IMG/VR virus record: IMGVR_UViG_3300038420_000034 | DNA: 51,875 nt | Source: a virus | Direction: 5' to 3' (one strand) | Shown: positions 49,795 to 50,922 of the stretch, in pieces | How positions within the stretch are numbered: position 1 is the stretch's first letter | Layout of the letters: every line of letters starts with the position of its first letter | The notes under the pieces: model-generated | What the model was told of the DNA's origin: nothing | The model's database searches: none | Seen by the model: the letters and a program-made list of their open reading frames with translations, nothing else | Program-made: the position numbers and the translations under genes

Positions 49795-50401
49795 AGCCGC
49801 GTGGCTCAGTCAGCCTTATGCCATGCCTGTTGGCGATCAAGCTGATGACGGTCTGGTCATTCCTATGCCCCTTGACACGTGAGTCCTCAGAGACCTGGCG
49901 ATGCTCGTTGGTCGTGGCCCCATGAAAGAGGTGGATGTGCTCGGCCAGCTCGTAGAGAAACGTCTGCCCAATGGCCTGGTCAAGGTCAAGGCCAATGAGG
50001 GCCGCCGTCGCCTCTGGCACTGCCATGGCCTTGTCACGAGACAAGCTGAACTCTGCTAGCGAGGCGTCACTGCTCCACTCCCCAAGAGGGTTGCCACCCC
50101 TGAGCAAGAAGATGCCATCGGCCTGGATGTGGTCAAAGACTGGCTGGATGTCCTTCACCGGCCAGACAGACGAGTCAACCCACAGCAACTTGGTGTAGCC
50201 CAGGTCCCTGGCCTTCAGCAGTGAGTAGAGCTTGAAGCCATAGCCACACTCGGCGTGGGTTGGTGAGCCAATCGACCGCTCATCGTCAAACAGCAGGACT
50301 GACCCAGTGTAGCCGACACACCTGAGGGCCGTCATCAGCCTGGCCTGCCCACGTGGATACCACCTCCCATTGGCAAAGTTGACGACACACGGCGGCCTCA
50401 T
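49718..50401 (-). CDS. hypothetical protein (227 aa)
   Basis: ORF. ATGA with the phosphatase stop. Confidence 0.5.
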   Translation of the reverse strand: MRPPCVVNFANGRWYPRGQARLMTALRCVGYTGSVLLFDDERSIGSPTHAECGYGFKLYSLLKARDLGYTKLLWVDSSVWPVKDIQPVFDHIQADGIFLLRGGNPLGEWSSDASLAEFSLSRDKAMAVPEATAALIGLDLDQAIGQTFLYELAEHIHLFHGATTNEHRQVSEDSRVKGHRNDQTVISLIANRHGIRLTEPRGYVAERNDFNEVDMSADPIFVLHRWA

Positions 50402-50922
50402 CGACGGTAGTGGCGGATGAACTCCTTGAAAAATGGCAAGAAGGCAGATGCCCCATACCTGTTGGCCTCAGTCACAGCATCAGCCGGCAGCGTCCCATGG
50501 CGTATCCGCCAGCACCCAACCACCAGTCCTGTGCGGTCACAGCCATATTGGCAGTGGACATAGACCGGCTTAGGCAGGGATTCGATGATGTCAAGGATGG
50601 CGTCCACGTGGGCCTTCGTCGGCGCGATGGTCCCAGACATTGCCAGGTTGGTGTAGGTGACCCCAAGCTGGCCGCACTCGACCAACTCCATCGGGTTGGC
50701 ATCGTTGCGCAGGTTCACGACGCTCTTGATCCCATGCGCGTCCCTCATCCACTCAAGGCCAAGGTAGTTTGGCTGGGCGCCACGATATAAGACGGCACGC
50801 TCCACCATGTCGAAGTTGGCGATCTGGTGTTCAGGTGGAAAGCCACGTTGAGTCACACACCCGGCTAGAACACAGGCGGCCATGGTGGTGAGGACAAAGT
50901 TATTTCGCTTCAATCGTCTCAT
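50398..50922 (-). CDS. protein-tyrosine/dual-specificity phosphatase with lipoprotein signal peptide
   Basis: VHCQYGCDRTG = HCx5R catalytic P-loop. N-terminus MRRLKRNNFVLTTMAACVLAGC carries a signal peptide with LAGC lipobox. Confidence 0.75.
   Translation of the reverse strand: MRRLKRNNFVLTTMAACVLAGCVTQRGFPPEHQIANFDMVERAVLYRGAQPNYLGLEWMRDAHGIKSVVNLRNDANPMELVECGQLGVTYTNLAMSGTIAPTKAHVDAILDIIESLPKPVYVHCQYGCDRTGLVVGCWRIRHGTLPADAVTEANRYGASAFLPFFKEFIRHYRR

What the first reader, a model, noticed from the sequence alone, without database searches (positions are those of the whole stretch)
50398..50922. Virus-encoded lipoprotein tyrosine/dual-specificity phosphatase
A complete signal peptide with lipobox (…CVLAGC) precedes a DSP/PTP catalytic loop VHCQYGCDRTG. 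A membrane-anchored, envelope-exposed phosphatase encoded by a phage could interfere with host envelope signalling, capsule or Wzc-type tyrosine kinases, or superinfection. It is separate from the cytoplasmic metallophosphoesterase at 28227..28796.
Basis: partly seen in the sequence, partly recalled or inferred. Interest (0 to 1): 0.5.

Follow-up and report, generated by a model that had tools for sequence, protein, structure and literature searches.

The report
Phage-borne lipoprotein PTP-fold phosphatase
A large, uncultured phage carries a gene for a small cysteine phosphatase with a lipoprotein export signal, so it probably works on the outer face of the host's membrane; the enzyme family is known, but its target and its use to the phage are not.

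Summary
ORF 50398..50922 (minus strand, 174 aa) starts with a textbook lipoprotein signal (MRRLKRNN-FVLTTMAACV-LAGC22) and contains an intact HC124QYGCDR130TG loop. It passes the curated cut-offs of five Pfam PTP/DSP families. The AlphaFold model (pLDDT 92) matches Siw14, AtPFA-DSP1 and the periplasmic Pseudomonas phosphatase TpbA.

The lipobox Cys is kept in 38 of 43 relatives; H, C, G, R, T and G of the loop are invariant.

Phage origin is supported. The window has a PurZ homologue, tail-module genes, HNH and GIY-YIG nucleases and a vault-protein gene shared with 462-735 kb phages. The closest relatives (about 50% identity) lie on 218-242 kb jumbo-phage-like contigs, on unrelated IMG/VR phages and on short unplaced fragments. 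Cellular relatives are 45% identical or less.

The canonical general-acid Asp is missing (Gly97). A conserved Asp129 sits before the loop Arg, as in myotubularin and MptpB lipid phosphatases. Substrate preference is therefore open. A Wzc target is topologically unlikely, because that kinase domain is cytoplasmic.

Verdict: a new, phage-borne member of a known exported phosphatase family. Biological role untested. Moderate interest.

The parts
50398..50922 (-). Complete CDS, 174 aa: lipoprotein signal plus PTP/DSP-fold phosphatase domain
   Evidence: ORF list and sequence. Pfam PF22741 3.5e-18, PF22785 1.3e-13, PF03162 1.3e-9, PF22784 and PF13350 are all above their cut-offs. AF2 model pLDDT 91.9. 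Foldseek best hits are Siw14, AtPFA-DSP1 and TpbA, TM about 0.7.
50860..50922 (-). Signal peptide, residues 1-21 (n-region MRRLKRNN, h-region FVLTTMAACVLAG)
   Evidence: Charge +4 and the highest hydrophobicity in the protein. Modelled as a lone helix, residues 4-21, with low pLDDT of 62-74. Equivalent hydrophobic N-termini occur in the homologues.
50857..50868 (-). Lipobox L19-A20-G21-C22; C22 is the predicted lipidated first residue of the mature protein
   Evidence: The PROSITE PS51257 rule is met. The Cys column is conserved in 38 of 43 sequences, with G/A/S at -1 in 39 of 43. All 12 members P0002-P0013 of the phage clade have [LVIF][STA][GAS]C. Processing itself was not tested.
50527..50556 (-). 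P-loop H123-C124-Q-Y-G-C128-D129-R130-T131-G132: catalytic Cys, phosphate-binding Arg, conserved loop Asp and a second Cys
   Evidence: H, C, G, R, T and G are invariant. D129 is present in 39 of 43 sequences and C128 in 35 of 43. Among 140 wider-family representatives, the residue before the Arg is Asp in 124 and Glu in 10.
50620..50646 (-). Loop equivalent to the WPD/general-acid loop (L93-A-M-S-G97-T-I-A-P101), with no acidic residue
   Evidence: In HMMER alignments, the general-acid Asp of 25xa, Cdc14B and the PTP-like phytase aligns with G97, and TpbA D105 aligns with I99. Siw14 has the same M-S-G at this place. Columns 98-100 show no conserved acid.
50927..50930 (-). Weak Shine-Dalgarno-like AAGG, 4 nt upstream of the ATG. 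The start overlaps the stop of the upstream gene (ATGA).
   Evidence: Upstream sequence TTCTAAGGTCAC-ATG and the junction TCACATGAGAC. No sigma-70-like promoter or terminator is found within 1.2 kb, and hits across the region are at shuffle level.
49718..50401 (-). Context: downstream gene, overlapping by 4 nt (ATGA), 227 aa, GT-A-fold (GT8-like) glycosyltransferase candidate with no signal peptide
   Evidence: No Pfam, PHROG, PADLOC or PDB sequence hit. AF2 model from 7 sequences has pLDDT 90.6. Foldseek finds LARGE1, XXYLT1, glycogenin, WbbM, LgtC and PBCV-1 A64R, E 2e-7 to 1e-4, TM 0.5-0.6. A variant contig (L008) has a different gene here.
50919..51389 (-). Context: upstream gene, 156 aa, Cys/His-rich, unknown function; its stop overlaps the phosphatase start
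   Evidence: No hit in Pfam, NCBIfam, PHROGs, PADLOC or PDB. It is conserved next to the phosphatase gene in contigs L007-L009.

Best explanation
The gene is a horizontally mobile phage accessory gene. It encodes an active, exported, lipid-anchored cysteine phosphatase of the atypical DSP group (TpbA / PFA-DSP-like).

Proposed course:
- It is translated as part of a tightly coupled run of small genes.
- It is exported by Sec, acylated at C22 and cleaved by signal peptidase II.
- The folded domain starts about 8 residues after the lipid anchor, so the active site sits close to the extracytoplasmic membrane surface.
- C124 attacks the phosphate held by R130 and the loop amides. There is no WPD-type acid (Gly97). 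D129 in the loop most probably takes that role, as in myotubularins and MptpB. C128 may act as a back-up Cys against oxidation.

My favoured biological role is removal of phosphate groups from a membrane-proximal envelope component. I favour a lipid or glycan head-group over a protein. This would change the infected cell's surface or envelope, for example to block superinfection or re-adsorption.

Shown: the ORF, the signal and lipobox motifs and their conservation, the catalytic motif, the fold, phage carriage, and a phage clade nested among cellular exported relatives.

Inferred: export and lipidation, enzyme activity, the role of D129, the substrate class and the benefit to the phage.

Molecular identity (an exported lipoprotein PTP-fold phosphatase encoded by a phage) is about 0.85 likely. 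The favoured role (envelope lipid or glycan dephosphorylation) is about 0.35-0.4 likely.
For: Identity.

Export signal. A hydrophobic N-terminus is present in 114 of 129 wider-family representatives.

Short tether: pLDDT rises from 74 (residues 21-30) to 94 (residues 31-40), the first strand residue is at 31, and R26-G-F-P-P30 is conserved.

No general-acid Asp, with an 'MSG' loop shared with Siw14. AtPFA-DSP1 and Siw14 work without a WPD acid (PMC9038691).

Loop Asp before the Arg: 39 of 43 sequences, and 134 of 140 as D or E. This residue is the general acid in myotubularins and in MptpB-type atypical lipid phosphatases (PMC4133821, PMC3091653).

Phage origin of the window:
- PurZ homologue
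- tail-module homologues
- HNH, GIY-YIG, Tmk and DHFR
- a vault-protein-like gene shared with 462-735 kb phage genomes

Phage clade:
- The closest relatives with known context lie on ORFan-rich 218-242 kb contigs with PolA, ligase and tubulin genes.
- An IMG/VR phage carries its copy just after a virion structural gene and about 8 kb after the major head gene.
- In the NJ tree, the clade of the window plus all phage-context members is free of known cellular members in 93 of 100 bootstraps.
- The phosphatase is the only gene the window shares with most of those contigs.

From general knowledge, the periplasm has no ATP, and its abundant phosphate esters are on lipids and glycans. A GT-A-fold glycosyltransferase gene is translationally coupled downstream.
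Against: No experiment exists, and no SignalP or LipoP run was possible.

The best profile match among solved structures is TpbA, which dephosphorylates phosphotyrosine peptides (PMC4409338). That fits a protein substrate equally well.

The match to the lipid-phosphatase family Y_phosphatase3 covers only 34 residues around the loop, and its conserved loop Lys is Cys here.

I had no model coordinates, so the position of D129 relative to the scissile oxygen was not checked.

No conserved neighbour links the cellular homologues to LPS, lipid or glycan genes. The glycosyltransferase neighbour is not conserved: it is replaced in L008 and absent next to the jumbo-contig copies.

The host, and therefore its envelope type, is unknown.
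Confidence: 0.4

Rival explanations
1. TpbA-like signalling phosphatase. The lipoprotein dephosphorylates Tyr (or Ser/Thr) on the periplasmic part of a host membrane signalling protein, such as a YfiN/TpbB-type diguanylate cyclase. This would lower c-di-GMP and matrix production during infection.
For: TpbA is the best profile hit among all PDB sequences (E 2.4e-21) and a top fold hit. TpbA is exported to the periplasm and hydrolyses pNPP and pTyr peptides from TpbB (PMC2691606, PMC4409338). Phages are known to target YfiN by other means (PMC8085984, abstract seen).
Against: Identity to TpbA is only about 22%. TpbA has a type-I signal and is soluble. It has a general-acid loop Asp105 and the loop HCKHGNNR, whereas here the loop acid is absent and the P-loop is HCQYGCDR. 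Direct periplasmic phosphorylation of TpbB remains a proposal (PMC2837407). No diguanylate cyclase or signalling gene is consistently adjacent in 59 cellular loci.
Confidence: 0.25
2. Phosphate-scavenging auxiliary gene. The protein is a broad-specificity extracytoplasmic phosphatase that frees inorganic phosphate from organic or condensed phosphates, to feed replication of a large phage genome in a P-poor habitat.
For: The family has weak similarity to PTP-like phytases (PF14566, 5e-4; 3f41). The acid-less loop is shared with PFA-DSP/Siw14, which act on phosphoanhydrides (PMC9038691). The carriers appear to be very large phages with many nucleotide-metabolism genes. One carrier's record name refers to a forest sample.
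Against: The loop is neutral to acidic (Q-Y-G-C-D) rather than the basic loop used to bind inositol polyphosphates. PTP-like phytases keep the general-acid Asp that is missing here. No pho-regulon-type neighbours were found. A short membrane tether is not needed for scavenging.
Confidence: 0.15
3. The enzyme counteracts a Wzc-type BY-kinase and so alters capsule synthesis.
For: Only the family label 'tyrosine phosphatase'.
Against: From established knowledge, the BY-kinase catalytic domain and its phosphorylated Tyr cluster are cytoplasmic, while a lipoprotein is on the other side of the membrane. Cognate phosphatases are of the LMW-PTP (Wzb) or PHP type. This protein has no LMW-PTP match, and its CX5R lies at residue 124 in a DSP fold.
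Confidence: 0.04
4. The protein does not act in the envelope. Either the N-terminus is only a membrane anchor or is mis-called and the enzyme acts in the cytoplasm on a nucleotide-type substrate, or it is packaged in the virion, or it is catalytically dead.
For: The best Pfam model, PTP-NADK, describes a domain fused to NAD kinase. In IMG/VR phage L079 the gene directly follows a virion structural gene. A 99% identical variant has Val at lipobox position -1 (P0001).
Against: The lipobox Cys and the hydrophobic core are conserved across the family. All catalytic residues are intact. No alternative start leaves out the signal yet keeps the conserved RGFPP segment.
Confidence: 0.08

Closest known systems
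TpbA (PA3885) of Pseudomonas aeruginosa, a periplasmic dual-specificity tyrosine phosphatase (PDB 2M3V, 4R0S)
   Same: Best profile match among solved structures (E 2.4e-21). Same compact DSP fold of about 160 residues (TM about 0.71). Exported by an N-terminal signal, and has an HCX5RTG loop.
   Different: About 22% identity. TpbA has a type-I signal and is soluble in the periplasm (PMC2691606), whereas this protein has a lipobox. TpbA has a general-acid loop Asp105 and the loop HCKHGNNR (PMC4409338); here there is Gly97/Ile99 and HCQYGCDR. TpbA is chromosomal, and this gene is phage-borne.
PFA-DSP / Siw14 family (Pfam Y_phosphatase2), the inositol-pyrophosphate phosphatases of plants and fungi
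   Same: Top Foldseek hits (E about 1e-9, TM 0.70-0.72). Pfam PF03162 is above its cut-off. The general-acid loop has no Asp, and the M-S-G tripeptide is identical to Siw14.
   Different: Those enzymes are eukaryotic and cytosolic. They have a strongly basic loop (C-K-R-G-K-H-R), with His before the Arg acting as general base (PMC9038691). Here the loop is neutral to acidic, Asp precedes the Arg, and the protein has an export signal.
Myotubularins and MptpB-type 'atypical lipid phosphatases' (loop HCSDGWDR / HCxxGKDR; Pfam Y_phosphatase3)
   Same: No WPD-type acid. A conserved Asp immediately before the loop Arg, which is the general acid in those enzymes (PMC4133821, PMC3091653). PF13350 scores 32 bits against a cut-off of 22.2.
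   Different: The match covers only residues 102-135. The conserved loop Lys is Cys here. The overall domain is much smaller than in myotubularin or MptpB. No lipid activity has been shown.
Phage-encoded outer-membrane lipoproteins used for superinfection exclusion (T5 Llp, Cor of phi80/N15); named from my own knowledge and not compared here
   Same: A small phage-encoded protein with a lipoprotein signal, expected to act in the envelope of the infected cell.
   Different: Those proteins block a receptor by binding it and are not enzymes. No sequence comparison was made. The role of this protein in exclusion is only a hypothesis.
Annotated but uncharacterised phage PTP-fold proteins, e.g. UniProt A0A6J5RU40 'Protein-tyrosine phosphatase, SIW14-like [uncultured Caudovirales phage]'
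   Same: Best hit in the viral structure library (E 2.4e-10, TM 0.68). This shows that PTP-fold genes have already been noted in phage metagenomes.
   Different: Only 21% identity, and 247 aa long. Whether it has a lipobox was not examined. There is no PHROG family for the window protein and no tblastn hit in 50,697 deposited phage genomes.

Membership tests
Cysteine-based PTP/DSP superfamily | HCX5R(S/T) phosphate-binding loop with invariant Cys and Arg | tested here: met
   H123-C124-QYGCD-R130-T131. H, C, G, R, T and G are invariant in 43 sequences.
Cysteine-based PTP/DSP superfamily | Score above the curated cut-off of a family model | tested here: met
   PF22741 66 bits (cut-off 27), PF22785 51.8 (27), PF03162 38.3 (27), PF22784 36.8 (27), PF13350 32 (22.2). 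Classical DSPc scores 27.8, below its cut-off of 33.5, and Y_phosphatase scores 15.7, below 20.9.
Cysteine-based PTP/DSP superfamily | DSP-type alpha/beta fold | tested here: met
   AF2 pLDDT 91.9 and pTM 0.84. 253 PDB chains match at E <= 1e-3, and all of the top 50 are PTP/DSP-fold phosphatases.
Cysteine-based PTP/DSP superfamily | General-acid Asp in the WPD-equivalent loop | tested here: not met
   The acid of 25xa, Cdc14B and the PTP-like phytase aligns with Gly97, and TpbA D105 aligns with Ile99. There is no conserved acid in that loop. This is a known exception class that includes PFA-DSP, myotubularin and Cdc25 (PMC9038691).
Cysteine-based PTP/DSP superfamily | Phosphatase activity that depends on the loop Cys | not testable with these tools
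   Needs the purified protein and a C124S mutant.
TpbA-like periplasmic DUSP | Significant sequence and fold similarity to TpbA | tested here: met
   Profile E 2.4e-21 to 2M3V and 3.8e-21 to 4R0S. Foldseek E 3e-8, TM 0.71.
TpbA-like periplasmic DUSP | Cleavable type-I signal giving a soluble periplasmic enzyme | tested here: not met
   This protein has a type-II lipobox, LAGC. The TpbA signal ends ...GGPLHA (PMC2691606).
TpbA-like periplasmic DUSP | General-acid loop Asp105 and loop HCKHGNNR | tested here: not met
   Ile99/Gly97 and HCQYGCDR.
TpbA-like periplasmic DUSP | Dephosphorylates the periplasmic Tyr of a GGDEF protein | not testable with these tools
   No host or substrate is available. 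There are no conserved GGDEF neighbours in 59 cellular loci.
PFA-DSP / Siw14 (Y_phosphatase2) | WPD-loop without a catalytic acid | tested here: met
   The M-S-G loop is identical to Siw14 in the alignment. Mechanism described in PMC9038691.
PFA-DSP / Siw14 (Y_phosphatase2) | Basic loop C-K-R-G-K-H-R that binds inositol pyrophosphates | tested here: not met
   The loop here is C-Q-Y-G-C-D-R. Only three distant relatives (P0039, P0041, P0042) have G-K-H-R.
Myotubularin / MptpB-type lipid phosphatases | Asp immediately before the loop Arg, acting as general acid | tested here: inconclusive
   The residue is present and conserved (D129 in 39 of 43 sequences; D or E in 134 of 140). Its catalytic role and geometry were not tested.
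Myotubularin / MptpB-type lipid phosphatases | Conserved loop Lys (HCxxGKDR) and full-length family match | tested here: not met
   Cys128 occupies the Lys position in 35 of 43 sequences. The PF13350 match covers only residues 102-135.
Bacterial lipoprotein (PROSITE PS51257 rule) | {DERK}(6)-[LIVMFWSTAG](2)-[LIVMFYSTAGCQ]-[AGS]-C, with Cys at positions 15-35 and K/R in the first 7 residues | tested here: met
   Met for C22, and also for C17. Only 3 of 256 window ORFs meet the rule. C22 is the conserved column.
Bacterial lipoprotein (PROSITE PS51257 rule) | Acylation by Lgt and cleavage by signal peptidase II | not testable with these tools
   Needs a globomycin or palmitate-labelling experiment. 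SignalP and LipoP were not available.
Wzb/LMW-PTP partners of BY-kinases | N-terminal CX4CR(S/T) loop, LMW-PTP fold, cytoplasmic location | tested here: not met
   No LMW-PTP family appears among the Pfam hits. The loop is at residue 124 in a DSP fold, and an export signal is present.
Known anti-phage defence proteins (PADLOC) | Match to a PADLOC model | tested here: not met
   No hit for the phosphatase or for six neighbouring and related ORFs at E <= 0.01.

The most novel reading that the evidence does not exclude
A clade of large soil and wetland phages carries an enzymatic envelope lipoprotein. This PTP-fold phosphatase, tethered to the membrane surface, removes phosphate (or a terminal phosphate of a diphosphate) from a host envelope lipid or glycan such as lipid A/LPS core, a polyprenyl diphosphate or a phosphoglycan. 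It would thereby re-model the infected cell's surface to exclude other phages or to prevent re-adsorption. This would be the first enzyme-type lipoprotein exclusion factor and the first PTP-fold enzyme with such an envelope substrate.
Probability: 0.2. Interest if true: 0.65.

Novelty: new member of a known kind. Interest (0 to 1): 0.35.

Why it matters
Phages are known to send small lipoproteins into the host envelope to block receptors or to help lysis. An exported catalytic phosphatase would be a different way of acting on the host envelope.

The gene has moved between unrelated phages as a single cassette and is kept intact. That argues for a selectable function, and it gives an experimentally tractable 150-residue enzyme.

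Finding its substrate would also clarify what the roughly 5,000 cellular cluster representatives of this exported family do in Verrucomicrobiota, Planctomycetota, Armatimonadota, Acidobacteriota and Melainabacteria. The only characterised relative, TpbA, has a still-debated periplasmic phosphoprotein target.

As it stands, this is an annotation-level result: domain, signal and phage carriage. It has no functional evidence.

Tried and rejected
1. PHROGs gave no family for the phosphatase or its three neighbours. tblastn against 50,697 deposited phage genomes found nothing. The first IMG/VR scan with the single protein found nothing; the scan with the alignment found 8 loci.

2. I looked for capsid, portal or terminase genes in the window to prove it is viral. 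The eight large ORFs at 13943..25687 have no Pfam or PHROG hit even at E <= 1. tblastn of two of them and of the 1701-aa ORF found nothing. No hallmark head or packaging gene was identified. The viral call rests on PurZ, the tail-module homologues, the nucleases and the genes shared with huge phages.

3. Guilt by association in 59 GTDB loci found only lineage-specific synteny with housekeeping genes (ABC ATPase, YjeF-like, TsaD-like). No cross-phylum partner emerged.

4. The promoter and terminator scan around the gene gave hits at shuffle level, none adjacent to the gene.

5. PADLOC gave no hit.

6. PDB sequence searches of the two flanking genes found nothing. Only the structure-based search identified the downstream gene as GT-A-like.

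7. I considered a Tat signal because of the RR at residues 2-3. I rejected it as unsupported: the rest of the Tat consensus is absent, and the homologues start MKL... without RR.

8. I considered the antisense ORF 50410..50790 (+). I rejected it: its tblastn hits are only the mirror image of the conserved phosphatase gene.

9. A first bootstrap script timed out. It was redone with vectorised distances.
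Full report
**1. The observation**

The window has an ATG-to-TGA ORF at 50398..50922 on the minus strand, 174 aa. Its sequence is MRRLKRNNFVLTTMAACVLAGCVTQRGFPPEHQIANFDMVERAVLYRGAQPNYLGLEWMRDAHGIKSVVNLRNDANPMELVECGQLGVTYTNLAMSGTIAPTKAHVDAILDIIESLPKPVYVHCQYGCDRTGLVVGCWRIRHGTLPADAVTEANRYGASAFLPFFKEFIRHYRR.

The N-terminus has an n-region of net charge +4 and a 12-13 residue hydrophobic core, which is the most hydrophobic stretch of the protein. The lipobox is L19-A20-G21-C22. The sequence meets every clause of the PROSITE PS51257 lipoprotein rule. Only 3 of 256 mechanical ORFs of the window meet that rule, and one of those three lies inside another gene. C17 also fits the pattern, but C22 is the aligned, conserved Cys.

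The start codon overlaps the stop of the upstream gene, and the stop overlaps the start of the downstream gene (ATGA in both cases). A weak AAGG lies 4 nt upstream. No promoter- or terminator-like site is adjacent. The gene therefore appears to be translated as part of a polycistronic run of small genes.

**2. What the protein is**

Five Pfam PTP/DSP-type models exceed their curated cut-offs:
- PTP-NADK, 3.5e-18
- Tc-R-P, 1.3e-13
- Y_phosphatase2, 1.3e-9
- PTP-SAK, 5.2e-9
- Y_phosphatase3, 1.6e-7

The classical DSPc and Y_phosphatase models are below their cut-offs. NCBIfam has no meaningful hit.

A search of 5.8 billion proteins returned 43 relatives. One is 99% identical, and the next are 49-53% identical and 160-177 aa long. 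In the alignment, H123, C124, G127, R130, T131 and G132 are invariant. D129 and E152 are each present in 39 of 43 sequences, and C128 in 35 of 43.

A profile of this alignment finds TpbA of Pseudomonas aeruginosa as the best match among all PDB sequences (E 2.4e-21), followed by AtPFA-DSP1 and Siw14. An AlphaFold2 model is confident (pLDDT 91.9, pTM 0.84). It shows a lone N-terminal helix (residues 4-21, the signal peptide) and a compact alpha/beta domain from about residue 31. Foldseek against the PDB ranks Siw14, AtPFA-DSP1 and TpbA first (E 1e-9 to 3e-8, TM about 0.70-0.72).

Exhaustive HMMER against 1.84 billion cluster representatives finds 5,230 relatives at E <= 1e-3, 616 at E <= 1e-10 and only 13 at E <= 1e-30. 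The broad family is sizeable, and the close subfamily is small.

**3. The export signal is a family trait**

The Cys column is conserved in 38 of 43 sequences, with G/A/S at position -1 in 39 of 43 and L/I/V at position -3 in 31 of 43. All twelve closest relatives (P0002-P0013) have [LVIF][STA][GAS]C followed by the conserved mature N-terminus x-T-Q-R-G-F-P-P-E-H-Q-I. Copies on the jumbo-phage-like contigs and on the IMG/VR viral contigs have the same arrangement.

Among the best 150 representatives of the wider family, 114 of the 129 with an N-terminal extension have a strongly hydrophobic segment. By a crude rule, about 42 have a lipobox after it. The family as a whole is therefore exported, and about a third are lipoproteins.

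The residue after the Cys is Val, not Asp. By the E. coli rule (established knowledge) this would mean outer-membrane sorting, but the host is unknown. One 99% identical variant (P0001) has Val at lipobox position -1, which is unfavourable for signal peptidase II. I did not follow this up.

**4. Catalytic anatomy: where it departs from a plain tyrosine phosphatase**

In HMMER alignments, the general-acid Asp of a bacterial DSP (25xa), of Cdc14B and of the PTP-like phytase all align with Gly97. TpbA Asp105 aligns with Ile99. The loop (L-A-M-S-G-T-I-A-P) has no conserved acid in the family. The M-S-G tripeptide is identical to that of Siw14.

PFA-DSP and Siw14 enzymes are documented to work without a WPD-type acid. 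Their substrate and the loop His before the Arg stand in for it (PMC9038691). In this protein the residue before the Arg is Asp129, conserved in 39 of 43 close relatives and present as D or E in 134 of 140 wider representatives. That arrangement (HCxxxxDR) is the one in which the loop Asp is the general acid in myotubularins and in MptpB-type atypical lipid phosphatases (PMC4133821, PMC3091653).

The loop is neutral to acidic (Q-Y-G-C-D). It is unlike the basic loop of the inositol-pyrophosphate enzymes and unlike TpbA's K-H-G-N-N.

A second Cys, C128, lies four residues after the nucleophile and is conserved. By inference only, I suggest it protects C124 by reversible disulfide formation in an oxidising compartment.

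Model confidence rises from 74 (residues 21-30) to 94 (residues 31-40), and R26-G-F-P-P30 is conserved. The tether between the lipid anchor and the domain is therefore at most about 8 residues. This places the active site near the membrane surface; that placement is an inference.

**5. Is it really phage-encoded?**

No head, portal or terminase gene could be recognised in the window. The viral call therefore rests on other evidence:

- (a) ORF 36016..37056 is a short adenylosuccinate-synthetase homologue. Its best matches among phage genomes are PurZ of Vibrio phage phiVC8 and relatives (32.7% identity, 90% coverage, 1e-27; 208 phage records).
- (b) Five tandem paralogues at 2700..7874 match a gene that sits between tail-fibre genes in Xanthomonas, Stenotrophomonas and Xylella phages (30% identity over 97%).
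- (c) The window also encodes an HNH endonuclease, a GIY-YIG nuclease, thymidylate kinase, DHFR, a phrog_547 phosphoesterase and a DNA methyltransferase.
- (d) An 877-aa major-vault-protein-like ORF is 37-40% identical over 90-96% of its length to regions of three deposited 'uncultured phage' genomes of 462 and 735 kb.
- (e) Nearly all genes are on one strand, closely packed, and mostly without database matches.

Exactly the same phosphatase protein is found on contigs from five samples, with the same small neighbouring genes.

**6. Relatives and evolution**

The closest relatives with known context (P0004, P0008, P0009, P0010 and P0011, 49-53% identical) lie on contigs of up to 218-242 kb. 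These contigs are poor in Pfam hits and carry DNA polymerase A, NAD-ligase, UDG, radical-SAM, DUF5661 and, in one case, a TubZ/PhuZ-like tubulin. The local order phosphatase - radical SAM - ligase - DUF5661 - PolA is conserved among them. I read these as jumbo phages, although I saw no structural genes in the 20-kb stretches available.

The window shares one further gene with them: residues 268-622 of ORF 18059..20011 are about 33% identical to a 400-aa protein next to PolA.

IMG/VR holds eight viral contigs with relatives. Three of these (two of them near-identical copies, L078 and L079) carry a clear lipobox version at 41-46% identity, and a fourth (34%) has a signal-like N-terminus that I could not read as far as the Cys. 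In one (L079, 37 kb), the gene directly follows a virion structural protein gene and lies about 8 kb downstream of the major head protein gene (phrog_1357, 1e-21). Apart from one GIY-YIG match, the phosphatase is the only gene the window shares with these contigs. The gene therefore moves as a single cassette.

Cellular relatives in 59 GTDB species genomes are at most 45% identical. They come from Verrucomicrobiota, Pirellulales, Sedimentisphaerales, Obscuribacterales, Armatimonadota, Acidobacteriota and others. One metagenomic relative (P0032) is clearly chromosomal.

In a neighbour-joining tree, the window protein falls in a clade with all phage-context members. That clade is free of known cellular members in 93 of 100 bootstrap replicates. 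Its nearest cellular neighbours include the Verrucomicrobiota sequence. The simplest reading is capture from a host followed by spread among large phages.

**7. What it most likely does**

Firmly supported: the gene encodes an intact PTP-fold cysteine phosphatase with a conserved lipoprotein signal, carried by phages.

Inferred: export by Sec, lipidation at C22, a membrane-proximal active site, C124 as nucleophile, R130 in phosphate binding and D129 as general acid.

The substrate is unknown. I rank three roles.

*(i) Dephosphorylation of a membrane-proximal envelope lipid or glycan, changing the cell surface; about 0.35-0.4.*
- For: the acid-less loop plus loop Asp is typical of non-protein-substrate PTPs.
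- For: the tether is very short.
- For: the extracytoplasmic space lacks ATP, and its phosphate esters are mostly on lipids and glycans (general knowledge).
- For: a GT-A-fold, GT8-like glycosyltransferase gene is translationally coupled downstream.
- Against: that neighbour is not conserved, and nothing links the cellular homologues to LPS or lipid genes.

*(ii) A TpbA-like action on the periplasmic part of a signalling protein; about 0.25.*
- For: TpbA is the closest characterised relative. It is periplasmic and hydrolyses pTyr peptides from the diguanylate cyclase TpbB (PMC2691606, PMC4409338).
- For: phages are known to interfere with that cyclase by other means (PMC8085984).
- Against: the differences in signal type, general acid and loop, and the still tentative status of periplasmic TpbB phosphorylation (PMC2837407).

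*(iii) Phosphate scavenging; about 0.15.*

A non-envelope role is about 0.08.

**8. Comparison and novelty**

The protein works like, and is a distant member of, the atypical DSP group that includes TpbA and PFA-DSP/Siw14. It is not a strict TpbA or PFA-DSP orthologue, because it fails their loop and general-acid features.

Its architecture (lipobox plus domain) is shared with many unstudied cellular proteins. PTP-fold genes have already been annotated in phage metagenomes (best viral fold hit: 'Protein-tyrosine phosphatase, SIW14-like [uncultured Caudovirales phage]'). It has no PHROG family, and no relative was detected by tblastn (E <= 1e-3) in 50,697 deposited phage genomes. My literature searches found no paper on a phage lipoprotein phosphatase; this is limited to the open-access library held.

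I therefore class it as a new (phage-borne) member of a known kind. Interest is moderate, and it would rise considerably if an envelope lipid or glycan substrate or an exclusion phenotype were shown.

Noticed in passing
window 36016..37056 (+): A short (346 aa) adenylosuccinate-synthetase homologue (PF00709, 9e-19). Its best phage matches are PurZ of Vibrio phage phiVC8 and relatives (32.7% identity, 90% coverage, 208 phage records). This suggests the phage may make 2-aminoadenine (Z) DNA. I did not search for DatZ/MazZ partners.
   Followed up: partly
window 33031..35664 (+): An 877-aa major-vault-protein-like ORF, the only large + strand gene besides PurZ. It matches Pfam MVP_shoulder (9e-19) and Vault_3, and PDB major vault protein (E 5e-11). 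It is 37-40% identical over 90-96% of its length to unannotated regions of 'uncultured phage' genomes LR756501/LR756503 (735 kb) and LR756500 (462 kb).
   Followed up: partly
window 13943..25687 (-), also 51389..51859 (-): Eight consecutive large ORFs (207-780 aa) have no Pfam or PHROG hits but share short repeated modules. One is 'W(V/I)HxDG(T/S)PYD(V/I)RPLER', present 1-3 times per protein. Another is a linker-like '(A/S)R(G/Q)VID(S/R)L'. A third is a C-terminal 'YYVLxNPxE...SKAMR' module, which is also at the end of ORF 51389..51859. Their function is unknown.
   Followed up: no
window 2700..7874 (-), and 1398..2132 (-): Five tandem paralogues of about 340 aa, all ending ...ETSNTVE(T/I)N. 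They are homologous to a gene lying between tail-fibre genes in Xanthomonas, Stenotrophomonas and Xylella phages (e.g. MET13-T1 'tail assembly protein'). Next to them is a 244-aa protein made of 'SSFTAAGVLxExF' repeats. The array looks like an expanded receptor-binding or tail-fibre module.
   Followed up: partly
window 49718..50401 (-): The gene translationally coupled downstream of the phosphatase has no sequence-level annotation. It models confidently (pLDDT 90.6) as a GT-A-fold, GT8-like glycosyltransferase (hits to LARGE1, XXYLT1, glycogenin, LgtC, WbbM and PBCV-1 A64R). Only 7 homologues were found in 5.8 billion proteins. In contig L008 a different 205-aa gene takes its place.
   Followed up: yes
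window 32136..32570 (-): A second ORF that meets the lipoprotein rule (MKLTPQPLYVLLISC|SSNAE, 144 aa). It has no PADLOC hit, and I did not search it against Pfam or PHROGs. It could be a spanin or an exclusion lipoprotein.
   Followed up: no
window 18059..20011 (-) residues 268-622; L001 13844..15046, L072 14701..15945, L073 10099..11346, L004 3556..4860: The C-terminal half of the 650-aa ORF is 30-33% identical to a 400-434-aa protein of unknown function. In the 218-242 kb jumbo-phage-like contigs, that protein sits beside DUF5661 and DNA polymerase A. It is the second gene shared between the window and that lineage.
   Followed up: no
L070 9548..10672 (-); L001/L003/L004/L072/L073: The jumbo-phage-like contigs that carry the closest phosphatase relatives share the order [UDG] - phosphatase - radical SAM - NAD-ligase - x - x - DUF5661 - PolA. 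One of them encodes a TubZ/PhuZ-like tubulin. Glycosyltransferase (GT64, GT2/7C-like), TylF methyltransferase and APS-kinase genes are nearby.
   Followed up: no
L070 5091..5621, L071 1211..1741, L075 1280..1699 (all divergent, directly upstream); L072 3403..3849: A small PAS-domain protein (139-176 aa) is encoded directly upstream of, and divergent from, the phosphatase gene in three of the phage-like contigs. In a fourth it lies 5 kb away. This may be a regulatory pairing; the window has no such gene next to its copy.
   Followed up: no
P0001 (99% identical relative; 4.8-kb contig): A natural variant with G21V at lipobox position -1 (LAVC instead of LAGC). This should impair signal-peptidase-II processing at C22, while the upstream C17 (MAAC) would still fit the lipobox pattern.
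   Followed up: no
window 371..1051, 16461..16982, 26441..26923, 27844..28230, 39145..40419, 45026..46099 (all -): Thymidylate kinase (3e-40), HNH endonuclease (phrog_589), DHFR (1e-29), GIY-YIG nuclease (3e-12), a DUF4419 protein (7e-33) and a DNA methyltransferase (phrog_56). This is a nucleotide-metabolism and modification set typical of large phages.
   Followed up: partly
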